This document shows positions 1 through 58,333 of a DNA stretch of 64,000 nucleotides, piece after piece. Each line of letters begins with the position of its first letter. The stretch's first letter is position 1. The stretch is from NCBI GenBank assembly GCA_040954595.2, contig CM082588.2, forward strand, positions 4,962,156 through 5,026,155. Direction: 5' to 3'. The notes beneath the pieces were generated by a model. That model saw only the letters and a program-made list of their open reading frames with translations, did no database searches and had not been told where the DNA came from. The translations under genes and the position numbers were made by a program. The DNA comes from Balanoglossus misakiensis. Taxonomy: Eukaryota > Animalia > Hemichordata.

Positions 1-1006
1 CTTCTGTGTGACGATGATTAGCGCCCTCACGTGTGTTGGCTCTGCTTTCTTTCCTCCATGTAGGTTTGTGAGAATCAATATGGTGAAATAAAACGTCATG
101 CTCCATGTCCAGGTTTCTTTTTTATAGAAATCAAGAAATTTTCAACAAATATTGAATGTTTGGAGGCTGAATTAAGTCACGACTTTTACTTGGAGCAGAA
201 CCCTCATCATGTAACTTTATATATAAAGGAGAGGTAATGCCCGCAACTAAACCAGGATGGTTTCATTTTTAGGTGGAAAACTGGTGTGGGTTGGTATTAC
301 GCTTTCTATCGCAAGCAAGGCTTTCATATCCGGGGCATTCAGCATGATTTATGTCTTCACGAGTGAGCTGTTCCCGACATCTGTCAGGTAAGGAATTAGA
401 GTCAGGTTCATTGTGCAAGGGTTTACCCTCAGCTAGACTCAGCTATGTTATCTGGTGGGGTTAAATAAAAAACTAGAACTAAGTCCAGGAATTTACTGCG
501 TAACGCGTGATTTCACTTCACAGGTCAACTGGGGTTAGTCTATGTGCAATGTGTTGTCGAATTGGAGGCATGTTGGCTCCACAGTTCCTATCGATGGCCG
601 ATGTCTGGGCGCAGCTGCCCGCTGTCGTGTTTGGGGGCGCTTCTGTTCTAGCTGGAGTCGCAATTCTCTTTCTACCCGAGACCCGGGGGAAATGTTTGCC
701 CGAAACTATGGACGAGGCGGAACAATTCGGCAAGTATGTATTCGTGCTGTCGGGTGCAGCAATGTATTTTAATGATAAAACAAAGCACGGAAAGAAATGC
801 TTCGATCCATGCGAAGGAATGGTGGTTTGATCACCGTATACATTTGTAAGCTCTGTTTATCATAGATTAATCTCATGTATTTCCTATTTGTTTAATTACC
901 TATCTTTTTCTTGTTTAGGAAACCACTGAAGCCTAACCACATGGACTATTGTGGCGGAAAGATAAGAATGGTTGAAATGGAGGAAGCACCCATTGTATCC
1001 ATTTAG
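1..1006 (+). CDS. SLC22 / organic cation transporter-like MFS protein, 3' exons only (5' partial)
   Basis: Exons <1-59, 273-387, 524-733 and 919-1006 have GT-AG boundaries and compatible phases. They translate to ...FSMIYVFTSELFPTSVRSTGVSLCAMCCRIGGMLAPQ...LFLPETRGKCLPETMDEAE..., with the SLC22 signatures ELFPTxxR and LPETxGxxLPET. TAG at 1004-1006; AATAAA at 1218 and 1351. Confidence 0.9.
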
Positions 1007-1421
1007 CTGTTGCTTGCATTTCAGCAAGACGTTTAGTTATTACGAAGTTGCCGTGGTGATGGATATTCCAATTGCAAACTAACTACAATTCGCAAACCCA
1101 TTCTGATCTTGCCCGTGTTAACTCCTATGTTAAACCTCGGGAAATAATCTTATACTGATGTTTGTCTGTCTGAGACCTGATTAGATTTGGTGAGCGTAGC
1201 TTGCATATTTATGATATAATAAAACATAACGTAAAATTGTAATTCTCAATACATTGTTCTCGCATTAGTACTTGTTGGACACAGAATATTTATGTATTAA
1301 AAATCCCGTATTCGTTTGAAATGTACTTCGTTTGTTATACTGGAGGCAATAATAAAGTCAGTCAGCAGCCATTAAAAAGTTCAACCAAATTTCGCAATAA
1401 CTGTAGGTTTTATATTTTCTT

Positions 1422-2975
1422 CTATCTTTGCAATGAAGTGTATTGATCTTCCTCTCGGGAATGTAAGTCTAACTTTTGATAATTTTCATGCTCGCTGGTT
1501 CCGCCTGAATTGGGGTTTTCATATGCACCATCTACGCTGTCTGGTATGTTAACCATTTGGAGATGTGAAGTATTCGCACCTTGAGGACACTTGTCCTGAC
1601 ATTCTTCGTAGTTGCTGTTAGCATGTGACGATGTGCCATCTGCACGCCTCTTTCTAATGATTATAAAGAGCCAACCGAACAATAGTGTCAGTAGTGACCC
1701 GAATACAAATGATCCCACTATGCCTCCGACCATCTGTGCTGTACTGTACGATGTGGAACATTTCCCCTGTACACACGGCAGACATTGTTCATTTAGATCG
1801 GTCGTTATGTGGCTTGTAACACTCTCCGCCCGTGTACCTGAAATTGTTGTTGTAGTGTCGTCTGTGGAATCTGTGGGTAGTACCAATTCTATGACACTTG
1901 TAGCAATACCTATACCGATCCCATTATCAGCAATGCACATGATTTCATGGTTCATTCCTTCACTGATGTCAAACCCCATAATCTCCAGAGTCATGTTATT
2001 GTAGCTTAGAACAATTGTGCCAGTGGTACCGTTTTGTGCCTCGAAAGTGCTACCATTATACCTCCACTGTATACTGTTCACCGGTGGGTAGCTGCTCACA
2101 TTGCAGACAAGCGTGAAAGTGTAATTTGTATTATATTGTATTTGCACGTGATTCGGCTCGACGTTGACATCAGGCGCAAATTCCAATAGAACATCAAATG
2201 GACCGATACTGCAAGACGTGTTGCTTCTAGCGTACTCACCGGTTGAAAAACCCGGGTGGCTCATTATGCAGTTGAATTGAATTCCAGTGTCAGATCTGTC
2301 TGGTTGCCAGTCATATTTGAGGTTCAAGATTGTTCCGCCCTCTGAATACATGTAAGGTGCGCCAGGCAAAGTTTCACCCGTATTATCATTATACCAGGTC
2401 AGTGATACCTGAGGATAACCAACGTCTGATTGGCACGAAAGCGTATAATTCTGACCTTCTTCAACTTTGATATTATTTGAAGACGACCATTTTGCATCAT
2501 TGAACAGACAAAGTGGGTGACTTACTCTCGGGAGTACATAGATATTAACGTAGGCTACTCGAGATTCTTCGATGACCGTCGTATCGCTTCCGTCTTGTAG
2601 AACTGTACATTGGTAGTCATCACTATCCTCCGCAGCATTTCCCAGGTATATTGGATTGATCTGTAGATTGTAAGTGGAGCTCCCACTTGATGTTGCACCT
2701 GTCATCACTCTGTATCTTCCGGTAGGCACTAATGCACTCCGTATGATGTCATTATCACTGATAACCCTTCCATTTTTCTTCCATGACACTTTGTGGCCAT
2801 TCTGCAGATTGCCGACTGTACAGTCCAACTGTACTGACTTGACACTTGTATCGGCGTGTTGGAATACTACAACCGTGTTGGATGGTTGGACTAGAAACGT
2901 CGCCGATGATAAAACAATGCTATAGAAAGTAGTGAAGAGGCACATAAAGACGTTAAAACTGACACGAGTTTCCAT
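1422..2975 (-). CDS. Single-pass IgSF receptor (signal peptide, 3 Ig domains, TM) with ITAM-like tail; putative activating member of a pair, 517 aa
   Basis: Uninterrupted ORF. Likely start METRVSF precedes a hydrophobic signal peptide. Three Ig folds with C...W...C pattern (D1 LDC/VSW/DxxxYQC). TM MVGGIVGSFVFGSLLTLLFGWLFIII followed by RKRR. Tail has YENP and YQKL-x9-YTSL (1431-1481). The ORF stays open upstream to an ATG at 3071, so the start is not certain. Confidence 0.88.
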   Translation of the reverse strand: METRVSFNVFMCLFTTFYSIVLSSATFLVQPSNTVVVFQHADTSVKSVQLDCTVGNLQNGHKVSWKKNGRVISDNDIIRSALVPTGRYRVMTGATSSGSSTYNLQINPIYLGNAAEDSDDYQCTVLQDGSDTTVIEESRVAYVNIYVLPRVSHPLCLFNDAKWSSSNNIKVEEGQNYTLSCQSDVGYPQVSLTWYNDNTGETLPGAPYMYSEGGTILNLKYDWQPDRSDTGIQFNCIMSHPGFSTGEYARSNTSCSIGPFDVLLEFAPDVNVEPNHVQIQYNTNYTFTLVCNVSSYPPVNSIQWRYNGSTFEAQNGTTGTIVLSYNNMTLEIMGFDISEGMNHEIMCIADNGIGIGIATSVIELVLPTDSTDDTTTTISGTRAESVTSHITTDLNEQCLPCVQGKCSTSYSTAQMVGGIVGSFVFGSLLTLLFGWLFIIIRKRRADGTSSHANSNYEECQDKCPQGANTSHLQMVNIPDSVDGAYENPNSGGTSEHENYQKLDLHSREEDQYTSLQR

Positions 2976-3600
2976 GTTTGGCAACTGCGAGGGATTGACT
3001 GTATGATCATCAATTCCATAAGCGCCACTAAAATAGTCAAACACTTCCGGGTTCAAATGTCGGTTGGGCATTATAATGTTAACAAAAGAATGCTTTGCCC
3101 ACCGTGCGCAAATGCCTGGTGGCGCTTATGGAATCGATGATCATACAGTCAATCCCTCGCAGTTGCCAAACATGGAAACTCGTGTCAGTTTTAACGTCTT
3201 TATGTGCCTCTTCACTACTTTCTATAGCATTGTTTTATCATCGGCGACGTTTCTAGTCCAACCATCCAACACTGTTGTAGTATTCCAACACGCCGATACA
3301 AGTGTCAAGTCAGTACAGTTGGACTGTACAGTCGGCAATCTGCAGAATGGCCACAAAGTGTCATGGAAGAAAAATGGAAGGGTTATCAGTGATAATGACA
3401 TCATACGGAGTGCATTAGTGCCTACCGGAAGATACAGAGTGATGACAGGTGCAACATCAAGTGGGAGCTCCACTTACAATCTACAGATCAATCCAATATA
3501 CCTGGGAAATGCTGCGGAGGATAGTGATGACTACCAATGTACAGTTCTACAAGACGGAAGCGATACGACGGTCATCGAAGAATCTCGAGTAGCCTACGTT
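2547..3600. repeat. Large inverted repeat: 482-bp arms (2547-3028 / 3119-3600) with a 90-bp spacer; weaker homology continues out to about 1812 / 4329
   Basis: Base-by-base comparison of the reverse complement gave 480/482 identity. Paired positions sum to 6147. Confidence 0.95.
2976..3171. promoter_or_regulatory. Putative compact bidirectional promoter and 5' leaders of the two Ig receptor genes
   Basis: Only 196 bp lie between the two divergent ATGs. Contains the palindrome CATTATAATG (3069-3078) and an ETS-type CCGGAAGT on the minus strand (3043-3050). Function is inferred. Confidence 0.55.
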
Positions 3601-5097
3601 GATATTTATATTCTCCCGAGAGTAAGTCACCCATATTGCCTGTTCAATGGTGTAAAATGGCCGACTTCAAGTAATATCATAGTTGAAGGTCAGAATTATA
3701 CGCTTTCGTGCCAATCAGACGTTGGATATTCTCAGGTATCACTGATCTGGTATAAGGATAATACTGGTGTAACTTTGCCTGGCGCACCTGGCACTTATTT
3801 AGAGGGCGGAAAAATCGTGAACCTCGAATATGACTGGCAACCGGACAGATTCGACACCGGAATTCAATTCACCTGCATAATGAACCATCCAGGTTTTTTA
3901 ACCGGTGATTATGATAGAAGCAACAAGTCTTGCAGTATCGGTCCATTTGATGTTCTATTCGAATTTGCGCCTGAAGTCAACGTCGAGCCGAATCACGTGC
4001 AAATAGAATATAATACAAATTACACTTTCACGCTTGTATGCAATGCGAGCAGCTACCCACCGGTGAGCAGTATACAGTGGTCGTATAATGGTAGCACTTT
4101 CGAGACACAAAACGGTACCAGTGGCACAATTGTTCTAAGCTACAATGACATGACTCTGGGGATTATGGGGTTTGACATCAGTGAAGGAATGAATCATGAA
4201 ATCATGTGCATTGCTGATAATGGGATCGGTCAAGGTAATGGTACAAGTGTCATAGAATTGGTACTACCCACATATTCTACAGACGACACTACAATAACAA
4301 CTGGTACAGAGACTGAACGTGTTACAAGCAATATGCCTATTCAGGCAACGATGAACAAGCCATTCAAATTTAACACACTTATGATAGCCATCGTTACTGT
4401 TTCTGGGCTCTTTGTCATACTGGTAATAGTCGCTGTGATTTGGTGCGGCATTGTTCAAAGTAGACGACAGAAACCAGGGCCGAAAACTGATTCTGAAGAC
4501 GTGGGCCTGAGTAAATACCAAGTGGGCGATGACGTCACAAATAGTGATGTTAAAGAGGAGGGTAGTGAAAACCCACTGTTCACTCAAGGGCGCACGTCTG
4601 GCGATGGAGTGGACATGTCAATTGGTGGAGGGTATGCTGACATCCGGGAAATCAGGGGAAGTAGCAGTACCAGTGGCGGGAATACACCACCTGCCGACGA
4701 AGATGTTGCTGCCAACGATGACAATCAACCGGTTGAAGACTCGCCAAAACCCGTCATTTACGCCAGCGTAAACAAGAGCAATAGAAGTAGGCGGGATGTT
4801 TCCGACTCGGAAGGAAAGGAGGAGAAAGAGGAACCTGACAGTGAAAAAGAAAACAAATCTGAGCTGGTTGGCGAGTCTACGAATACCACTGCAGAAGGAT
4901 ATGTTTATGATGACGTCAGCGACCAAACCAACCGTGACAACGAAAACGGTCAATCAACAGAAGTCCAGCCGGACGAAAAAAAATCCCCACCGAAAAATCC
5001 CGAGGAATTGCATTATGCTGAACTGGATTTGAGTAAAGGAGTCAAGCAACCACCAAAGAGCCATGATCCTGTCGAGTATGCACAAATAAAACTGTGA
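3172..5097 (+). CDS. Single-pass IgSF receptor (signal peptide, 3 Ig domains, TM) with ITIM-bearing tail; putative inhibitory member of a pair, 641 aa
   Basis: Uninterrupted ORF with the same ectodomain plan as the minus-strand gene. TM LMIAIVTVSGLFVILVIVAVIWCGIV. Long acidic tail with VIYASV (4753-4770), YVYDDV, LHYAEL (5008-5025) and VEYAQI (5071-5088). In-frame upstream ATGs exist at 3076 and 3112. Confidence 0.9.
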   Translation: METRVSFNVFMCLFTTFYSIVLSSATFLVQPSNTVVVFQHADTSVKSVQLDCTVGNLQNGHKVSWKKNGRVISDNDIIRSALVPTGRYRVMTGATSSGSSTYNLQINPIYLGNAAEDSDDYQCTVLQDGSDTTVIEESRVAYVDIYILPRVSHPYCLFNGVKWPTSSNIIVEGQNYTLSCQSDVGYSQVSLIWYKDNTGVTLPGAPGTYLEGGKIVNLEYDWQPDRFDTGIQFTCIMNHPGFLTGDYDRSNKSCSIGPFDVLFEFAPEVNVEPNHVQIEYNTNYTFTLVCNASSYPPVSSIQWSYNGSTFETQNGTSGTIVLSYNDMTLGIMGFDISEGMNHEIMCIADNGIGQGNGTSVIELVLPTYSTDDTTITTGTETERVTSNMPIQATMNKPFKFNTLMIAIVTVSGLFVILVIVAVIWCGIVQSRRQKPGPKTDSEDVGLSKYQVGDDVTNSDVKEEGSENPLFTQGRTSGDGVDMSIGGGYADIREIRGSSSTSGGNTPPADEDVAANDDNQPVEDSPKPVIYASVNKSNRSRRDVSDSEGKEEKEEPDSEKENKSELVGESTNTTAEGYVYDDVSDQTNRDNENGQSTEVQPDEKKSPPKNPEELHYAELDLSKGVKQPPKSHDPVEYAQIKL

Positions 5098-6433
5098 GCA
5101 CCATTAAAGTTACTTGGTGGGCGTAGTCCCGTCTGCGATTGTTTGTATGGCTCCCATACAACACAGTTATATTTGCTAAAATTGGGGAAGCGAATAATCC
5201 GCGTCACTTTGGCCAAATTACCTTCAAAGCAGAAAGACTGTTTCTATTGAAACTAGAGAATGGATTTGTAAAGTGTCCATCTCTTGATATTGTCTCATTG
5301 TACCCATGACCTCTGGCATATAAAGGTATTCAATACACCGGCACAGTTGCCTGTACAGCCTGTCTGACTATTGGGTGACTTGTCATATCGTACCTGCCAC
5401 TCCCAAATTGCATTGACAAGATATGAGGAACACCTCATATGATAACAAAATGTTAGCAATTACTTTTTTTCGTATTTGAAGCAAGTCATTTTTGACAATC
5501 TGTACTCAGTTTACTTATCAATTGAATGTATTAAATACATTCCTTTTCAATCTTTGATAATGGTAACCAGATAAAAACACAAGCCATGATAAACGTATGC
5601 TCTCAATCAATGTCATCATTACTCAAAAACATGATACTTTCCTCATGTTAACATCTAGATTTAAATAATTTAATTTTGTTGATGTGAATAATCGTTGTAA
5701 TTAGTCCTTTCTTATTTTTACGAGTTTTCAACATCACCATGGTATTGTAATGAAATTCTATATTCAATGCAGTGTTCATTTTATCAAGTAACATATTTGT
5801 TTGTACTCAGTCATTACTATCTTGGGTGTGTTTTATATATATTCAAAATATTTTTTTTGGTGATAACCGGGAATTCAGTTTTCCTTCTTTGTACATGTAA
5901 TAATAAGTATTTTAAATTTTAAATGTGTGTACTAAGTTTTGGAACCTAGAAATGTCCCATAGCGCCATTTCTCGGAAATTGTGTTATTTGAAGAACGAGA
6001 TAACGATGAGTTTATTACATATTCAAGATAATACAATTAAGCTAATTTCTAAATGGAGTTGAGAAATTGTTGATGTAAAATAGGTAAACCCATTACTGTT
6101 GTACTAAGAATATTTTGTAAATTTCACTCGAGCTCGTGTACAACACAATTCATCGAATGATTACACTTTGCAAAGTCTTTGTAAAAATTCTAAAATTTTA
6201 ATGGATTGCCATATTTTGAAAATGAAGGTTTTGGGTGTACGTATCAGACAGGTTGCCAAAAAGGCAACAAAGATAAAGACATCACGAATTTTTATGTATG
6301 GATGAGATGAAAATGGCAGTTTATGATTAAAAATTTCACTTTTTATCTGTCTATTATTTTGCATATATATCATGGTTGTATTCATCAAGTACTAATCATA
6401 TAGGTGTGTCATGTACATGTAGATTGGTACTGA

Positions 6434-11659: not shown

Positions 11660-12227
11660 TGTACGCTGGGCCCGGCTCGACCTTTGGTTGAGGTTGCGTT
11701 TCTACATCGCGCACGGTTTCGAAGCACCTTGTTGACGTACTATCGAACATTCCTAATTAATAGAATAACCCTTAATTTAAATGTTTCATTAAAATGTGAC
11801 AGAAAACTGGTACTTACAGTACAGACTGTGCACAATGGTGGTTGCAGGCCAGGAGAAGAGGCATCCTCGAGTTTCGTCGTCACTTTCCATAACCGGTGGT
11901 TTATGTACATAATCCTAAATGAAGCTACCACAATCCTGGTAAATCCAGTCCATATCGTCCCAGTAATGTCCTCCACTTTCAATTGGTTGTCACAAATTGG
12001 CCTGAGGGTGATGAACAGGGCGTTGTTGTCACTACATTCAGACATGGTGTTTATACGTCAAAGACTGAGCATCGAATGATGGAAGTGGCACCTCACTGAC
12101 CATCCGGACAAATGAACTGACTGCGTCATTCACCAGGTGCATTTTGTGAGGCTTGTGATTGGTTGATGTGATTGAGAAGTTGTTTAGCATACCGAGACCC
12201 CAGATGGTGTTTTCATACTACGTGTTG
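11660..12227 (-). mobile_element. Dispersed repeat family copy A (about 570 bp)
   Basis: Aligns by eye with 25490-25985 and 46725-47298; shared blocks include ctggtacttacagt, catatcgtc, agggtgatgaacagg, cacctcactgaccatc and tgattggttgatgt. Confidence 0.8.
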
Positions 12228-24100: not shown

Positions 24101-25489
24101 TAAAATATCGAAAACTTATATGTAGGCGGGTGTTTTCTGCCGGTTTATAGCAGACTCTATCTGTGTGTACATCAGCGTACACAGCACACGTTATCGCCCA
24201 TCCTCCCTCGCGGTTGCCCTTTCCACGACGCTGCGTGGGAAAGATATGTCACAGATTTGGAAAGAAAAGAATCCTCACTGATTAATACGATGTATTTATG
24301 ATCGCCGCCGGTGGGGGGAGCTGAAATTATTGCCTCGTTAATTGCGTGGGGGCTTTTCCCCGGGAGCATTAACCTTCAATTGAAAGTGAATGTTGGTCCG
24401 CATTTGCAGATAAACATTGTCAACAGGCGATTTTAGTGGCGGCCGAGCCCGTCTTCACCGCCAGTCTAACGGATTGAGATGCTGCTGCGTTTTACCTCAC
24501 AACATCAGTTTTGCATTCACGTTGAACAATTCGCTTTATTAAATCTTCGATTGAGATCGGATTCTACGTCAGCGGCAGACCGACTTGCCGGCGTCGACGT
24601 CCGCACAAGACGTCTGTAAGCTCGCGAAGACTAAAACGCAACACAGGTACATGTTTGTATGGAATGCAACCTAGTGAATAGCCTTAGGCCTTGTACTGTG
24701 CATTCAAATTATTAGTAAACGTAAACGTGAAGAGAAGTTTTAAACCGGGGCACTGTAAACATATTAATTGTCGATTTACGGGATTGGGCGTATTGAGCTG
24801 TAAAAATCAAATCATCCTCACTTCAAAGACTTTCACATTCGTATGGTACGAATATACATATGTACGATGAATTTTTGGAGAGGGAAAATTAGTGGAACAT
24901 GGCGTGGAGGAAACAAAAGCTTCTGCAATGCTTTGAGGGAAGGAGTGGACTGGAAATTTGAAATAATAAAATTGCTGGAACAGTGACTGAAAATAAATTT
25001 GCTGACATACCGAAATCCTTCACCCCCTGAAATCAAATGGTTCACCCCTTACGTTGTGGTATTATACCAACATGGCGGTGGGTGACGCAGTTTTATCTAT
25101 ACTCCCACCATTGTGCGTGGTTGTTGTCGCTATCTCCGACAACTGCAGAAGATGAATGGCAGCCCGTATGTTGAAGATAAGCAATCGCCTGCAACCACGC
25201 GAAAGGCAATAATTACATCCCAGGGCAACGGAAATATCGAGCAATAAGAAACCTCGTTATTGTACGCGCGCATCTTTTATCATGTCGTAAATAAAACCAC
25301 GCTGATGTTAAAATTCTTTGTCATCGCTCTATCTGTTGATGAAAATTTTTTGTAGTCCGTCAGCCGCCGAAACTTGTTTTAGTTATGGCCACCATAAACA
25401 AGGTTCTCCATCGAATAACGCGGTGTACTGAAACATGTGGGAGTATTCTATAAACTAACGAACATATAAGAATATCCTAAGAAGAACCT

Positions 25490-25985
25490 AGCTGATGTAT
25501 TATCGAAAATTCCTGATCAACAGAATAATTTTACATTTCAATTTTGCGAGAAAAATGACATAAAGCTGGTACTTACAGTGGGGGCTGCAAGCCAAGGGAA
25601 AATGGACCCTCGATCTTCGTCAAATCATTTTCCATGTCCAATTGTTCACGCACACGAGGCTACCAAAGCTGGGGAAATCCAATCCATATCGTCACAGTCA
25701 TGACCTTCACTATCACTTGGTTGTCCGAAATTGTCCAGGGTGATGAACAGGTCGTTGTGGTCACTACATTCAGCCATGGTGTTTGTACGTCAACGACTGA
25801 GTACCGAATGATGGAATTGACACGTCACCTCACTGACCATCTGGCAAATAAACTGGATGACACCTATCCAATCGAAATGTGTCACTCAACAGGTGTATTT
25901 TGTGAAGCTTGTGATTGGTTGATGTTATTGAGAGGTTGATTAGCATACCAAGACCACAGACGTTGTCTTAATACCACGTGTTGGT
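25490..25985 (-). mobile_element. Dispersed repeat family copy B
   Basis: Homologous to copies A and C, same orientation. Confidence 0.8.
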
Positions 25986-40266: not shown

Positions 40267-41313
40267 TCACACAGAACAGACGTCTTTTGAGTTGTTGTGA
40301 GAGTTCGGTGATAGCACTGTGCTGGCTGGATTACGCGTTGAGATGGAGCGGTTCGTGGACATGAGGTGACGCAGGTTCCTGTTTCGGCCGTGCGGATGTG
40401 TGTGATGTCGACAGAAGAACGCGTGCTTGAAGGCTTGTCTGTAAGTCGAGCTGAGGATGTTATAGATGAAAGGATTCGCCGAGGAGTTAATCTCGAGGAA
40501 ATAGGTGCTTATGTTCGCCAGACAAAAGACATCATGGGTGAGAAGAACTTGTCCCGAAGCGTCGAACTGTATCATGAAGAGGACAGTCTGCAGGACTATG
40601 GGCAGCAGACATAGGAAGTGCAGCATCGAGGTAGCCAGGCATATTCGCACAATCTGCCGCTCTTTCTGGCGAGATAGGACCGGGCGCGGTGAATTTCTGG
40701 CGGCCAGTATAATGAGATTATACATCACAAATATAACCACCATTACGGCGAATACCGTGGACAGAAAAATTATCCTCCCCGCCAGTGCTCTCGACTCGGT
40801 GTGGGCGAAGCAGTCGACGAGCGCTTCCGACGATATGACGCACGAGAGAAACCAGATTAGGACGATCATGTAGGCTATGAAGTGAACCTTGTGGATCATG
40901 CTGTCTCTATAGATGACCGGCTTGCAGATGGCCAGGTAACGCTCGATGCTCAGCACGGCCACGGTGAAGAGCGACACGTACTGGTACAGCCGGGAGAAGT
41001 ACATCATGGCGCAGTACTCCGTCTCCGTCGTCGAGTCCTGGAAGTAGCCGATCCAGATGGCGACGTGCCAGACGAGGTGGAACAGATCGGCGACGGCCAG
41101 GTTGACGAGGTAGGCGTTCAGCACCGTCCGCATGGTCGGGATCTGGGCCACCACGTACATGAACGCCAGGTTGGCGGTGACGCCGATCACCGAAATGCTC
41201 ATGCCGATTCCGTACTGGACGTCGGGGTTTAACAGACAGGAGGATTCGAACGACATGTTGTCGAAGGTGAAATTTTCCATCGTGTAGGACGCGTCCGTTG
41301 GATACCTATCCAT
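40267..41313 (-). CDS. Intronless rhodopsin-like (class A) GPCR, peptide-receptor-like orphan, 348 aa
   Basis: Seven hydrophobic segments with TM1 Asn (VTAN), TM2 NLAVAD, TM3 Cys and ERYLAIC, TM4 Trp, TM6 CLLP, TM7 NSSANPFIY and helix 8 YRQAF. Start taken at the ATG in strong context (ctcaccATGg); N-terminal NFT and NMS sequons. Confidence 0.92.
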   Translation of the reverse strand: MDRYPTDASYTMENFTFDNMSFESSCLLNPDVQYGIGMSISVIGVTANLAFMYVVAQIPTMRTVLNAYLVNLAVADLFHLVWHVAIWIGYFQDSTTETEYCAMMYFSRLYQYVSLFTVAVLSIERYLAICKPVIYRDSMIHKVHFIAYMIVLIWFLSCVISSEALVDCFAHTESRALAGRIIFLSTVFAVMVVIFVMYNLIILAARNSPRPVLSRQKERQIVRICLATSMLHFLCLLPIVLQTVLFMIQFDASGQVLLTHDVFCLANISTYFLEINSSANPFIYNILSSTYRQAFKHAFFCRHHTHPHGRNRNLRHLMSTNRSISTRNPASTVLSPNSHNNSKDVCSV

Positions 41314-41686
41314 GGTGAGATCGGGCAAGAAGATCGGGCAAATGGAACGTATATATACGTACGAACAAATGTCAGGAAAAGATGTGAAAAACTTTTGTAC
41401 AAACACGAATCAAACTGTGATTATATAAATTGGCTGTATCTTACATTTCCGCTCTTGTATGGCCTAGGAGGAGATGGAGGACACCGATGCACCGCCAAGC
41501 TGAATGCTCCGGCTCGCTGGACTGAAGACACCACCAGTCACTCTTGCACAACAAAGCGTATTATGTCAGCGGCGAGAAGCAAACGGCATGCTTTCATCGT
41601 GGTCACAACTCCACTGATGTGCGCATTTCGCGTCTCGCGAAAGCGAGGTAGCTTCACCCCTTTGGGGGGTCGAGTAATTATCATGC

Positions 41687-46724: not shown

Positions 46725-47298
46725 TATGCGCTGGGCACGACCTTTGGTTGGGGTTTCATTTCTACCTCGCACACGGTTTCGCCCGAAGGTACCAGACTGA
46801 AGTACCTTGTTGACGTACGTTCGAAAATTCTTAATCAATATTAACTTTAAATTTAAATTTTTCGATAAAATGTGACAGAAAACTGGTACTTACAGTAGAG
46901 GATGTGCGCAATGGTGGTTGCAGCAAGCCAGGAAGAAGGTGTCCTCGAGTTTGGTCAAGTCACTTTCCATGACCGATGGTTCACGCACAGTTTCTTAAAA
47001 GAGGCTACCAAAAACTTGGAAAATCCAGTCCATATCGTCCCAGTCATGACCTTCACTTTCACTTGGTTGTCCGAAATTGGCCAGGGTGATGAACAGGTCG
47101 TTGTTGTCACTACTTTCAGCCATGGTGTTTGTACGTCAACGACTGAGTATCTAATGATGGAACTGACACGTCACCTCACTGACCATCTGGCAAATGAACT
47201 GGCTGTGTCATTCACCAGGTGCATTTTGTGAGGCTTCTGATTGGTTGATGTGGTTGGGAAGTTGTTTAGCATATCAAGATCACAGATGTTGTCTTAAT
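46725..47298 (-). mobile_element. Dispersed repeat family copy C
   Basis: Homologous to copies A and B, same orientation. Confidence 0.8.
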
Positions 47299-55427: not shown

Positions 55428-58333
55428 TTAGCTCCCTGAATTGTAATCAGATTTCAAGTAGACTGAAGCTTATGGTTTATTTGTCGTTCCTGCCTTTGAT
55501 GTATCTTGAAATCGCGAAGAACTCACGCATGTGTGCTCACAAAAGGCAGATAAGGGAAAAAAACATCGACTTCTGGTCGAATGTTTTGCAAATTGGTTAC
55601 CTGTAAATTAGGCAGGCCGTTTAAAAATATGCTAACTTGCAGAAATTTGTCTAGTTTCACTTTCCTCATATTTGGCAAAAACAATTGTAATGGGAGCACA
55701 GTGTACTTAGCACTATTTTTGTGGAGTGTATCCTGACCCACGCCGCCTTTCTTTGTAATGCGGTTCCCACTGAATATTAGTACAGAAAAACAGAATACAG
55801 AAAACAATGACAAAATAGTGCAGTACTTAGCACTAAATACAGAAATTTGGATGCGAAAATAAAGAAAATGTACATCACATGGCGATCTTACAATATATTA
55901 GGTTCGAATTAGGGTGTACAGAGAAAACAATAGACCAACTCACCTGATCGGATGAAGGATACCGATCGAACGCATCGGCTGGTTGCAATCTCGCTTGACC
56001 AGTCATGGGAGTCATAGTACGACCTCTGCCATAAACCACACGTTCCTCCAATACCAATGACCCTCCCATCATCATTGACGGATATGTCACTGACAACTCC
56101 ATAGCCATCAACAGCGGACCACGCCCCCTGTATACCAGGACGGATCCATAGTTTGCCTTCCATGCCCACACCGAGCACGCCAGCGGCTGGCAGTGGTGAT
56201 ATGGATTGCACACAGCAGCTACCACCAACTGGCCCACTCCATGTACCCTCCACTGCAGGGCGTGTCCACATCTGATTCCCCATACCGATACCAACTATTG
56301 TACCATCTGGCATAACGGTGACGTCTTTGACACAGCAGCTGTTGGCCACAGGTCCCTGCCAGGGCTCGTTTGGATTGGTCGATGACTTGGTGTATAGATA
56401 GTTATCGTGGCCGACACCGACAACAGAACCGTCATATAGGGTAGTGATAGCGATGACGCAACAACTGTTTTCCAGTGGTCCTATCCAAGTTCCTTCTATA
56501 TCATTTCGTTTGTATACTTGGTAGTTGGATCCGACGCCATATGTCGGTGCTGTGAAGAGAAAGCAAAGTCACGAGTTGCTACAAGTCCAGCTTTGTCAGA
56601 AACTAGAATGGGAGTAGATTTTCACAATAAGGCGTCATACGTCATAGTGTATGTGTTACTGTACTTATTCAATTTTAAAATATTTACCTGCATTGCCATG
56701 GTAAGTTTGCCAGTTTGACACCTGGGCTGTGAAGATAATATGTGTAAATATGTTATGAAATGTTTTCCCTATTGAAGGTGTCAATTGGTGGAAAGATAAA
56801 AATGCCTTTTGTTTGTTAATAAGCTACTGCGCACATCATCATGTTTCTGGAATTTGGACAATAAACAACAGTAGAATGCAGAAAACAAAGATACTGAAAA
56901 CACGGCGAAAAAATATATCGAACAAAGAGATCGTGTCTGAAAACATAATTGTGTGCATAGCAATAACTTACCATTTCGCATAAATGACACTGACTTAACA
57001 CATCGACTACTAGCGATTTCGCCCAACCAGTGATGCGAGTCATACGCAGTTCGCTGCCACAATCCACACGTAAATCCAATACCGATGACTCTACCGTCTC
57101 CGTCCACGGAAATGTCACTGACACCTCCATAGCCATCAACGTTGGTCCACGCTCCTTGTACGCCTGGACGGACCCACAGCTTGCCTCCCATACCAACACC
57201 AAGCACTCCACCAGACGGCAGAGGTGATATGGATTGAACACAGCAGCTGCCGGCCACAGGACCACTCCATGTACCCTCCACTGCAGGGCGTGTCCACATC
57301 TGGTTACCCATACCGATACCAACTATTGTACCATCTGGCATAACGGTGACGTCTTTGACACAGCAGCTGTTGGCCACAGGTCCCTGCCAGGCTTCGTTCA
57401 GTTCGCTGGGGGATTTAGTGTACAGGTAGTTGTCAATGCCAATGCCAACCACTGTCCCGTCGGTCAAGGTGGTTATGGACGACACGCAGCAACTCTCTCT
57501 CAAAGGACCTATCCACGTGCCTTCAATCTCCGCTCTCTTGTACACGTTTAAGTTAGACCCCACGCCAAGTATAGCTGTTTGGGCAAAAAAATGGTCAAAA
57601 ATGCAATTTTGTGTTGTTTTGGGTCAATCGGACTACTTTTTTCGTAATATTCACCAAATTTTACATAGAATAAGCATATCATATGTCATCAGATCTCAGA
57701 ATGTGACGAAAACAGTGTGTTTTATGTGTTTTCTAAAAATGACCTTTTTGGGGTTAAAAATGGCCAAAATGGCAATTTTGTCTTGAGTGGGGTCAATAAG
57801 ACTGACTTTTTTGGAATCAGCACCATTTTTACATAGAATGGACTTCTCAAACCTTCCTTAACGGCACCTATCTCCTGGACTAAATGTAAGTGGAAGAAAC
57901 ATTATACGGTGCACAATGTTGACTGATTTGAAAATTGGGAGATTACTGTACTTACGGCGCTGCAATGCACATCTGATAACTTCGGTCTAGTAATGAAAAT
58001 ATAAAGTTTGTGTGACTGTACAGAATAGCTATAGCTCTGGAAATTTGAATTGAATTTCTCAATTGTCCGTCTGTCGGTTTTTGTTTGTCTTTTTCTGTAT
58101 GCAATGTGAGCTGTCTCTGAAATTATAAGCTTACTCCCCATCGATTTTGTTCAGATGCGTTGGGAAGTACGAACCTTTTGCTACATAACAAGGGATAAAA
58201 GTTACTCGTGGTTCAGGTGTCGCAACAAATATACATGTACCCAACCTCAATCATAGTAAAAGCATTTTCTTCAAAGGATGAGACATAAACTTACCTGGCA
58301 GAGCAGACACACCAATAAGATTTTGAAATCCAT
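55428..58333 (-). CDS. Secreted tectonin/tachylectin-like beta-propeller protein with two tandem five-repeat domains
   Basis: Phase-compatible GT-AG exons: 58333-58295 (MDFKILLVCLLCQ), 57986-57956 (TEVIRCALQR), 57574-56972 and 56549-55944. Each large exon encodes five repeats of about 40 aa (GxG..LW.R....G.W.GP...SCCV..I....DG). The terminal exon is uncertain; one candidate is 55435-55428 (GS-stop). Confidence 0.8.
57578..57839. repeat. Two diverged direct repeats (57578-57671, 57747-57839) in an intron, probably a transposon remnant
   Basis: Shared tttggg..aaaaatgg.caaaa..gcaattttgt..tg....gggtcaat...cacca..ttttacatagaat. Confidence 0.65.

What the first reader, a model, noticed from the sequence alone, without database searches (positions are those of the whole stretch)
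1422..5097. Head-to-head paired Ig receptors: same first Ig domain, opposite signalling tails (ITAM-like vs ITIM)
Seen: two divergent genes encode an identical signal peptide and first Ig domain, homologous domains 2-3, and unrelated TM and cytoplasmic regions. The minus-strand tail ends YQKL-DLHSREEDQ-YTSL and also has YENP. The plus-strand tail has VIYASV, LHYAEL and VEYAQI. Established: YxxL-x(6-12)-YxxL is the ITAM pattern that binds Syk-family kinases (the 9-residue spacer is at the long end), and [ILVS]xYxx[LV] is the ITIM that binds SHP phosphatases. The LHYAEL...VEYAQI pair resembles the CD33 LHYASL...TEYSEV arrangement. Vertebrate paired receptors (SIGLEC11/16, SIGLEC5/14, PILR, KIR, SIRP) use this logic, but their activating members usually signal through an adaptor via a charged TM residue. 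Here the TM is uncharged and the motif is in the receptor's own tail. Inference: an independently evolved activating/inhibitory pair for pathogen-mimicry defence or allorecognition in an invertebrate. I do not recognise it as a described system, but could not search.
Basis: partly seen in the sequence, partly recalled or inferred. Interest (0 to 1): 0.92.

Follow-up and report, generated by a model that had tools for sequence, protein, structure and literature searches.

The report
Acorn-worm back-to-back paired receptor cassette
Two intron-free genes, likely from an acorn worm, sit back to back only 196 bases apart and encode receptors with an identical outer tip but unrelated insides, one with an accelerator-type motif and one with three brake-type motifs, so they likely form an invertebrate version of the opposing immune receptor pairs of vertebrates.

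Summary
Observation confirmed. Gene A (minus, 2975-1422, 517 aa) and gene B (plus, 3172-5097, 641 aa) are single open frames forming a palindrome around a 90-nt spacer. Signal peptide and V-type domain 1 are identical; domains 2-3 differ at about 9% of bases; membrane segments and tails are unrelated. Short-read contigs match both arms exactly and show domain 1 at double depth, so a collapse artefact is unlikely. The host is likely an acorn worm; the ectodomain falls in a hemichordate-only clade whose Ptychodera member ends in the same YxN-plus-ITAM layout, and two hemichordate proteins share B's twin-ITIM ending. Two further domain-1 versions in the same sample differ by 11-14%, tails by 1-3%. 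Best reading: a paired receptor whose tips are likely matched by gene conversion, working like CEACAM1/CEACAM3 without being a CEACAM or Siglec. Expression, ligand and signal direction are untested. The scan noted two similar layouts elsewhere in this genome (unchecked). My searches found no paper on this family.

The parts
1422..2975 (-). Gene A, single open frame, 517 aa: signal peptide, three Ig domains (V-type, C2-type, I/C2-type), Thr-rich stalk, uncharged membrane segment, 77-aa tail with YxN and ITAM
3172..5097 (+). Gene B, single open frame, 641 aa: same ectodomain plan, uncharged membrane segment, 213-aa acidic tail with three ITIMs
2547..3028 (-). Left arm, near-identical tract (53-nt leader, signal peptide, domain 1); likely gene-conversion tract
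   Evidence: 2 differences in 482 nt against 3119-3600; Fisher p about 2e-13 against the rest of the arm
3119..3600 (+). Right arm, near-identical tract; ends at the last strand of domain 1
1815..2546 (-). Left arm, older similarity (domains 2-3 and start of stalk), 86-96% identity per 100 columns to 3601-4330
3601..4330 (+). Right arm, older similarity (domains 2-3 and start of stalk)
3029..3118 (.). 90-nt unique spacer; candidate shared two-way promoter. Holds an ETS-type site (3043), a C/EBP-like site (3104) and a 10-nt TATA-like palindrome (3069-3078) exactly at the axis of symmetry
   Evidence: ETS pattern: 2 matches in 64 kb; C/EBP-like: 4; chance of a 5-pair palindrome at the axis about 0.001; all noticed after the fact; motif names recalled
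1758..1784 (-). Three extra cysteines (C398, C401, C406) next to the membrane in A only; an odd number, so a covalent dimer is possible (inference)
1656..1733 (-). Membrane segment of A, no charged residue
1512..1523 (-). YENP, a YxN motif (Grb2-type site), 14 residues before the ITAM
   Evidence: YxNx as GRB2-type motif in PMC5112662 (passage)
1431..1481 (-). ITAM-type motif YQKL-x9-YTSL, two residues before the stop
4378..4455 (+). Membrane segment of B, no charged residue
4753..4770 (+). ITIM 1 (VIYASV)
5008..5025 (+). ITIM 2 (LHYAEL)
5071..5088 (+). ITIM 3 (VEYAQI), at the C-terminus

Best explanation
Two back-to-back, intron-free genes encode receptors with the same outer tip and opposite tail motifs, and they likely act as a paired immune receptor: B would recruit SHP-type phosphatases and damp a cell, A would recruit a Syk-family kinase and Grb2 and trigger it, with the tips likely kept alike by gene conversion. 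Shown: gene layout, identical domain 1, sharp end of identity at the domain 1/2 border, motif content, related hemichordate proteins with the same two tail layouts, and further domain-1 versions 11-14% apart in the same sample. Inferred: (a) the 90-nt spacer is a shared promoter, so the same cell makes both; (b) the palindrome lets the arms pair and copy domain 1 across; (c) B reads a self or self-like ligand and a microbe that exploits B is caught by A, as for CEACAM1 and CEACAM3; (d) the tip changes fast under that pressure and conversion re-matches the two genes. The ligand is unknown.
For: Identity gradient: 2 differences in 482 nt, then about 9% over the next 730 nt, with no intron at the border; synonymous divergence 0.01 in domain 1 against 0.15 in domain 2. 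This matches the conversion pattern reported for oppositely oriented Xenopus ceacam pairs (PMC5112662, passages) and for head-to-head SIGLEC11/16 (PMC5701461, passages). Motifs exceed shuffles. Of 144 homologs (Ptychodera XP_070550477) ends in A's YxN-plus-ITAM layout and 2 (Ptychodera XP_070568247, Saccoglossus XP_077864649) end in B's twin-ITIM layout; each layout arose in 0 of 100,000 shuffles of those tails (patterns written after seeing the sequences). The pair sits in a clade of 11 hemichordate rows (support 100/96), and in a sub-clade of 7 (97/91) that holds ITIM- and ITAM-tailed members (49 of the 146 proteins were used). In run X1 two domain-1 contigs at single-copy depth differ from the window at 24 of 209 and 22 of 161 letters, while tail contigs differ at 10 of 366 and 12 of 844; all 10 changes in tail A lie outside the last 42 codons that hold YENP and the ITAM (p 0.007). 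Amphioxus SYK binds and phosphorylates an ITAM receptor (PMC13344425, passages).
Against: No expression, binding or signalling data exist for either gene. The shared leader holds two out-of-frame ATGs (3128, 3137) and an acceptor-like AG just before the start, so the transcript ends and the promoter are unresolved. A has no AATAAA or ATTAAA on its strand between 1430 and 900, only variant hexamers. The ITAM spacer of 9 fits the x6-9 consensus of the Hydractinia paper but not the D/ExxYxxL/Ix6-8 consensus of PMC5112662. Whole-tail alignments to the homologs are not significant (phmmer E above 0.2): the likeness is motif-level. The Ptychodera ITAM protein model lacks a membrane segment. The two extra domain-1 contigs overlap yet stay separate, so they differ from each other: identity of the two tips does not appear to hold in the second haplotype, and a paralogous origin of these contigs is not excluded. 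An intron patch nearby is as polymorphic (25 listed changes in 174 nt). The closest folds are adhesion proteins (Rst, SYG-1, Neph1). Amphioxus SYK suppresses NF-kB (PMC13344425), so 'ITAM = activating' is not certain in invertebrate deuterostomes.
Confidence: 0.58

Rival explanations
1. An adhesion or development pair derived from Kirrel/NEPH-type molecules: both bind the same partner cell, and the tails feed different but not opposing outputs (SHP2 as a positive scaffold for B; Grb2 and Syk/Shark for A, for example engulfment or migration).
For: Best fold matches for domains 1-2 are Rst (Z 16.5, rmsd 4.7, 202 aligned), SYG-1 (15.6) and Neph1 (15.0). Ptychodera homologs are auto-named 'kin of IRRE-like' or 'cell adhesion molecule'. 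Amphioxus SYK is inhibitory on NF-kB. SHP2 acting positively is established knowledge (recalled).
Against: Only three Ig domains; no homolog above 50% identity in the collections searched and 11-17% difference between ectodomain versions in one sample point to fast change, which is atypical of developmental adhesion genes (inference). The clean split of ITAM-only against ITIM-only tails suits opposition.
Confidence: 0.17
2. A self/non-self (allorecognition or gamete/kin recognition) device: the polymorphic tip binds its own allele on another cell, with B giving 'self, stand down' and A giving 'attack', as proposed for Hydractinia Alr and Botryllus FF/FcoR.
For: High difference between versions of the ectodomain in one sample. 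ITAM/ITIM Ig receptors lie in invertebrate histocompatibility loci, and FF/FcoR genes are head-to-head pairs. Kirrel-type domain 1 often binds like with like (Kirrel2 D1 homodimer among the fold matches).
Against: Acorn worms are solitary and no natural tissue fusion is known to me (recalled). If both tips bind the same self ligand equally, allele discrimination is hard to explain. FF and FcoR do not share an ectodomain, unlike this pair.
Confidence: 0.12
3. A by-product: a recent inverted duplication put an ectodomain copy on a second tail, conversion near the axis follows from the palindrome geometry alone, and one gene is silent or drifting.
For: Conversion rate rises with proximity (PMC5701461, passage), and identity is highest nearest the axis. 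Upstream ATGs and the weak poly(A) signal of A. Between A and B, domains 2-3 show no strong purifying signal (dN 0.10/dS 0.15; dN 0.06/dS 0.03).
Against: Both frames are intact, indels between arms are in multiples of three, all ectodomain cysteines are kept, unique tails stay open far beyond chance, the ITAM part shows no change in the second version, and both tail layouts recur in other hemichordate genera.
Confidence: 0.1
4. Assembly artefact (fold-back read, collapse or polishing made the arms and the identical domain 1).
For: No contig laid spans the whole locus; the runs belong to one sample, possibly the assembly's own.
Against: Contigs match arm-specific stretches of both arms with no difference (1954-2136, 3696-3956, 4008-4190); domain 1 is at 177x against 89-90x for single-copy stretches in X2; the spacer is covered at about twice single-copy depth in X1 and a contig crosses 3030. 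A fold-back would not give two different intact tails.
Confidence: 0.03

Closest known systems
CEACAM1/CEACAM3 and Xenopus ceacam pairs (PMC5112662, PMC2832619; passages read)
   Same: ITIM against ITAM or ITAM-like motif in the receptor's own tail; YxN motif beside the ITAM; conversion limited to leader and first Ig domain; opposite gene orientation; fast re-divergence of the tip.
   Different: Not a CEACAM: domain 1 keeps the canonical cysteine pair (C52, C123). CEACAM genes are multi-exon, lie far apart, and the tract follows the exon; here the genes have no coding introns, lie 196 nt apart, and the tract ends at the domain border without an intron.
SIGLEC11/SIGLEC16 (PMC5701461; passages read)
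   Same: Head-to-head genes; converted region covers upstream DNA and the V domain; less similar region follows.
   Different: About 9 kb apart; Siglec-16 has no signalling motif and uses an ITAM adaptor; this domain 1 lacks the Siglec arginine.
Hydractinia Alr family (bioRxiv 10.1101/2022.03.04.482883; passages read)
   Same: Invertebrate V plus I-set receptors; ITAMs (x6-9) in 14 tails and ITIMs in 2; tails more divergent than ectodomains.
   Different: Alr domains 2-3 lack the paired cysteines and most carry an Fn3-like fold; no converted pair with one shared tip appears in the passages I read.
Botryllus FF/FcoR (PMC12582321; passages read)
   Same: Invertebrate deuterostome Ig receptors, encoded head-to-head in co-expressed pairs, with ITIM or hemITAM tails and polymorphic haplotypes.
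   Different: The pair is a motif-less receptor plus a co-receptor from another family; activation and inhibition swap by allele or splicing; hemITAM rather than a full ITAM.
Irre-cell recognition module: Rst/Kirre, SYG-1, Neph1/Kirrel (PDB 4of8, 4of3, 4ofd)
   Same: Best structural match for domains 1-2.
   Different: These have five Ig domains (recalled) and no ITAM/ITIM pairing; identity is only 19-24%.
Hagfish APAR-A/APAR-B (recalled only; searches found no paper)
   Same: As I recall, closely related V domains with activating-type and ITIM-type tails in a jawless vertebrate.
   Different: As I recall, a single V domain and a charged membrane residue in the activating form; not checked here.
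Unnamed hemichordate three-Ig receptors (Ptychodera XP_070550467, XP_070550475, XP_070550477, XP_070567334; Saccoglossus XP_077864649, XP_077864427)
   Same: Same clade by domains 1-2; ITIM- and ITAM-tailed members; three lie on one 771-kb scaffold and several on the 44.3-Mb sequence that also carries the best match of this window's GPCR.
   Different: 26-34% identity in domains 1-2; only automatic names; their gene layout could not be read.

Membership tests
Paired receptors (functional class, as defined in PMC5701461) | Closely similar extracellular ligand-binding region | tested here: met
   Residues 1-143 identical; domains 1-2 88% identical
Paired receptors (functional class) | Opposite signalling motifs in the two members | tested here: met
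   ITAM pattern only in A, three ITIMs only in B, both above shuffles
Paired receptors (functional class) | Opposite signalling shown by experiment | not testable with these tools
   Needs chimeras and pull-downs
Paired receptors (functional class) | Overlapping expression in the same cells | not testable with these tools
   No RNA holder listed; the 196-nt gap only suggests a shared promoter
Paired receptors (functional class) | Tip similarity kept by gene conversion | tested here: met
   Step in identity at the domain 1/2 border, p about 2e-13; dS 0.01 against 0.15. Direction and date not determined
ITAM | Yxx[I/L]x6-9Yxx[L/I] (consensus in the Hydractinia paper) | tested here: met
   YQKL-x9-YTSL
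ITAM | D/ExxYxxL/Ix6-8YxxL/I (consensus in PMC5112662) | tested here: not met
   Spacer is 9; acidic residues lie at -2 and -4, not -3
ITIM | [I/L/V/S]xYxx[I/L/V] | tested here: met
   Three matches in B
Siglec / CD33-related | Essential arginine on strand F and no canonical F-strand cysteine in the V domain (recalled) | tested here: not met
   Strand F reads Y121-Q-C123-T-V125; C52/C123 invariant in the 56-row alignment
CEACAM | N domain without the B-F disulfide (recalled) | tested here: not met
   C52 and C123 present
Kirrel/NEPH/IRM | Domain 1-2 fold like Rst/SYG-1/Neph1 | tested here: met
   Z 16.5, 15.6, 15.0; other Ig proteins follow closely (Necl-4 15.2)
Kirrel/NEPH/IRM | Five Ig domains (recalled) | tested here: not met
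   Three domains, then stalk and membrane
Nectin / nectin-like | V-C2-C2 ectodomain with orthology to nectins | tested here: inconclusive
   Three-domain plan fits and nectin-4 is the only PDB sequence hit (E 4.5e-4), but no named nectin was in the tree
Hydractinia Alr | Domains 2-3 without paired cysteines; Fn3-like fold | tested here: not met
   Cysteine pairs present in all three domains; no Fn3 family hit
Botryllus FF/FcoR | Head-to-head pair of a motif-less receptor and an unrelated co-receptor | tested here: not met
   Both genes carry tyrosine motifs and share the ectodomain
Adaptor-coupled activating receptors (DAP12/FcR-gamma type) | Charged residue in the membrane segment | tested here: not met
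   None in A or B

The most novel reading that the evidence does not exclude
A self-contained 3.7-kb palindromic immune switch: one two-way promoter of under 200 bases drives an activating and an inhibitory receptor together, and the palindrome itself copies each newly evolved tip from one gene to the other. Acorn worms would use such cassettes repeatedly, on old ITAM and twin-ITIM tail modules, which would place conversion-maintained paired receptors outside vertebrates and before adaptive immunity.
Probability: 0.3. Interest if true: 0.86.

Novelty: new variant of a known kind. Interest (0 to 1): 0.7.

Why it matters
Paired receptors kept alike by gene conversion are a vertebrate textbook answer to microbes that hijack inhibitory receptors. 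Invertebrate ITAM and ITIM receptors are known from Hydractinia and Botryllus, but the passages I read there show no pair sharing one converted tip. A hemichordate pair would show that the whole design, conversion included, exists in an invertebrate deuterostome. Because both genes lack coding introns and fit with their likely promoter in 3.7 kb, the locus can be amplified whole from many animals and its tails tested directly in reporter cells. That makes three open questions testable: whether ITAM/ITIM opposition predates vertebrates, whether the tip is under microbial pressure, and how conversion and diversification alternate.

Tried and rejected
No whole genome is held for this window, so gene copy number and other loci could not be searched. 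Word-index search with the ectodomain: 0 of 2,952 candidates at E 1e-5. The same tool with a 10-row alignment returned 0 of 7,993 at E 1e-15, not even the alignment's own members, so I treat that blank as uninformative. No RNA holder listed. Run X3 holds a contig that skips the 734-918 intron of the neighbouring transporter gene and so looks RNA-derived; it laid nothing on either receptor gene; this is no evidence on expression. Predicted homodimer of domains 1-2: no answer, score 0.00 in two runs, alignment not used; not counted either way. Three loose ends in X2 (2551, 3744, 5068) first looked like alternative domains or an alternative last ITIM; all carry GATC at or next to the break, two as GATC-GATC, which points to ligation chimeras, so I dropped them. 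Most X2/X1 differences at 2292-2513 are B-arm letters laid on the A arm (10 of 14 listed), not alleles. Whole-tail phmmer against the fetched proteins gave nothing significant. No further copy of the family in the window (tblastn). A crude scan found donor-like sites but no strong acceptor inside either tail. ESM Atlas gave generic three-Ig clusters (fasciclin-3-like, nectin-3, MUC18). Foldseek gave generic three-Ig hits. Paper searches that found nothing on this family: 437 papers, none of the 25 listed mentions hemichordates; 0; 1, a Siglec review; 1, unrelated; 1, a KIR review; top 20 of 3,846 listed, none on these receptors; hagfish APAR not found. The library lacks most subscription journals, and I read no supplements.


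Full report
What is there. The window holds two divergent, uninterrupted frames: A, minus strand, ATG 2975 to stop 1422, 517 aa, and B, plus strand, ATG 3172 to stop 5097, 641 aa. The start codons are 196 nt apart. The genes form an inverted repeat whose arms begin at 3028 and 3119 and run about 1.2 kb, around a unique 90-nt spacer. Pfam finds three Ig stretches in each (Ig_3, C2-set_2, a weak V-set). AlphaFold models give a signal helix, three confident Ig domains with a V-type strand order in domain 1, a disordered stalk, one membrane helix and a disordered tail.

Identity is stepped. The first 482 nt of the arms (53-nt leader, signal peptide, domain 1) differ at 2 places; the next 730 or so differ at about 9%, with two 3-nt indels (Fisher p about 2e-13). 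Synonymous divergence is 0.01 for residues 1-143, 0.15 for domain 2 and 0.03 for domain 3. The step falls on the last strand of domain 1, where there is no intron. A single duplication would give even divergence, so repeated conversion is the better reading. Proximity to the axis could also produce a gradient, so selection for the border is inferred, not shown.

Tails. A ends YENP ... YQKL-x9-YTSL; B has VIYASV, LHYAEL and VEYAQI. A has no ITIM and B no ITAM. An ITAM pattern arises in 0.3% of 100,000 shuffles of tail A and three ITIMs in 0.09% of shuffles of tail B. Neither membrane segment is charged; A alone has three cysteines beside the membrane. The unique parts stay open for 129 and 251 codons, far beyond base shuffles, so they are coding and not read-through intron. 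The ITAM fits the x6-9 consensus used for Hydractinia Alr and misses the stricter x6-8 consensus in PMC5112662.

Is the locus real? Three coded runs of one sample were laid; they are not independent of each other and may be the assembly's source. Contigs match arm-specific stretches of both arms with no difference, domain 1 stands at 177x against 89-90x for single-copy stretches in X2, and in X1 the spacer bin is at 71x against about 36x for single-copy contigs, with one contig crossing 3030. No contig spans the locus. An artefact is unlikely but long reads are still wanted.

A second set of versions. In X1 two contigs at single-copy depth cover domain 1 with 24 of 209 and 22 of 161 letters changed (residues 39-111), three changes at 3505-3522 are seen at double depth, and a domain-3 contig has 51 of 291 changed. 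Tail contigs differ at 10 of 366 (A) and 12 of 844 (B). Summed depth over the mirrored domain-1 bins is near four single copies, which fits two genes on two haplotypes, though a paralogous pair is not excluded. All 10 changes in tail A fall at 1550-1713 and none in the last 42 codons (p 0.007); contigs can be mosaics of two alleles, which weakens this. The two domain-1 contigs overlap but remain separate, so they differ from each other: the tips seem identical on the assembled haplotype and only partly alike on the other. That fits conversion followed by re-divergence, as described for Xenopus Ceacams, and it argues against a strict need for identity. An intron patch at 84-257 is as variable (25 listed changes in 174 nt), so the ectodomain level is high for coding DNA, not beyond local background. 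The tool showed 40 of 167 difference rows, so dN/dS could not be computed.

Host and family. The window's GPCR is 59% identical to a Ptychodera flava protein and 41% to a Glandiceps talaboti protein: the host is likely an acorn worm. A full HMMER search of the ectodomain gave 144 proteins at E 0.001 or better. All 10 top-ranking hits that I looked up (P0010-P0019) are Ptychodera (8) or Saccoglossus (2) models with automatic names; of 10 further look-ups, 3 are hemichordate, 4 echinoderm and 3 unnamed. In a tree of domains 1-2 from 49 rows (the pair and 47 of the 144 hits, chosen for covering both domains), the pair lies in a clade of 11 hemichordate rows (100/96) and a sub-clade of 7 (97/91) with Ptychodera XP_070550467 (one ITIM match), XP_070550477 (ITAM) and Saccoglossus XP_077864649 (two ITIMs; long branch). 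Among the 144 hits, 1 ends in A's three-tyrosine layout and 2 end in B's twin-ITIM layout; each appeared in 0 of 100,000 shuffles, with patterns written after the fact. One of the twin-ITIM proteins (XP_070568247) has an ectodomain outside the clade, so tails and ectodomains appear to mix. Whole tails do not align significantly, and the ITAM-bearing model lacks a membrane segment. By fold, domains 1-2 are nearest to Rst, SYG-1 and Neph1 (Z 16.5, 15.6, 15.0).

The spacer. It holds 1 of the window's 2 ETS-type sites and 1 of its 4 C/EBP-like sites, and a 10-nt TATA-like palindrome lies exactly on the axis, equally far from both start codons (chance about 0.001, noticed after the fact; motif names recalled). 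This suggests a two-way promoter. Against a simple picture, the shared leader has two out-of-frame ATGs and an acceptor-like AG ten bases before the start, and A lacks a canonical poly(A) signal. Transcript ends need RNA.

How it likely works. Shown: layout, motifs, conversion signature, family. Inferred: both receptors reach the surface of the same cell; ligand binding leads to tyrosine phosphorylation; B docks an SHP-type phosphatase through its twin ITIMs; A docks Syk or Shark through the ITAM and Grb2 through YxN. A self ligand would favour the brake, and a microbe that binds B's tip to damp the cell would also bind A and be engulfed, as for CEACAM1 and CEACAM3 (PMC5112662, PMC2832619; passages). 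Invertebrate Syk is reported to occur with CARD-CC and Bcl10, and hemichordates are named among Bcl10-bearing groups (PMC5978004; passages); I did not see a direct statement of Syk in acorn worms. Amphioxus SYK binds and phosphorylates an ITAM receptor, yet suppresses NF-kB (PMC13344425; passages), so the direction of A's output is open. I put this reading at 0.58, an adhesion pair without opposition at 0.17, allorecognition at 0.12, a by-product at 0.10 and an artefact at 0.03.

Comparison with what is known. It works like a CEACAM1/3-type pair in motif placement and like SIGLEC11/16 in head-to-head layout (about 9 kb apart there). It is not a member of either family, nor of Kirrel, Alr or FF/FcoR, by the tests listed; the defining residues for Siglec and CEACAM and the Kirrel domain count are recalled. 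Hydractinia Alr and Botryllus FF/FcoR already show ITAM or hemITAM and ITIM tails in invertebrates, the latter in head-to-head pairs of unlike genes. Hagfish APAR is recalled only. Ten paper searches gave no paper on this family; the library lacks most subscription journals and I read passages, not whole texts or supplements.

Earlier scan notes. Two unchecked notes describe head-to-head Ig receptor pairs with shared tips on other pieces of this genome, both with an ITAM on a predicted dead kinase (e1-10585863, e1-10597145). Look-ups by sequence and by relatives found nothing like this locus, so those seem to be other genes. I could not test them and do not count them as support; they shaped only the wording of the most novel case.

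Verdict. A real feature and a new variant of a known kind: a compact, intron-free, palindromic receptor pair in a likely hemichordate, with good sequence evidence for conversion and for old ITAM and ITIM tail modules, and no functional data. Interest 0.70.

Noticed in passing
window 1-1250 (+): Last exons of a transporter-like gene (my reading: SLC22/MFS type; the one exon scanned had no Pfam hit). It converges on gene A; its stop is near 1005 and a contig of run X3 skips its 734-918 intron. Little room is left for A's 3' untranslated region.
   Followed up: partly
window 3622 (+) and 2525 (-): A donor-like GTAAGT lies in both arms just after domain 1; if used, it could give short forms with domain 1 only.
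   Followed up: no
window 3927-4338 and 1865-1866: Run X1 holds a domain-3 version with 51 changes and a 6-nt gap in 291 nt, and stalk variants, at about single-copy depth: the second haplotype or a paralog differs over the whole ectodomain.
   Followed up: partly
window 5116-5167: A short stretch 20 nt behind B's stop is shared with other places of the genome (several loose ends in X1 and X2).
   Followed up: no
window 40267-41409 (-): Intron-free rhodopsin-family receptor, 59% identical to a Ptychodera flava protein and 41% to a Glandiceps talaboti protein; used to place the host.
   Followed up: yes
window 55909-57623 (-): Two neighbouring tectonin-domain exons, 75% alike over 300 nt: likely a tachylectin-type lectin gene or pair.
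   Followed up: no
window 11721-12216, 25481-25972, 46799-47298: Three decayed copies of a dispersed repeat, 79-93% alike.
   Followed up: no
P0086, P0089, P0103, P0114, P0118, P0130, P0131: A separate well-supported clade (100/99) of short Ig receptors from unnamed sources, in which several tails match ITAM or ITIM patterns; host not determined.
   Followed up: no
P0009, P0010: Long proteins built from many repeats of the same domain 2-3 unit (P0010 is a Saccoglossus 'hemicentin-like' model): the unit is a mobile module in hemichordates.
   Followed up: no
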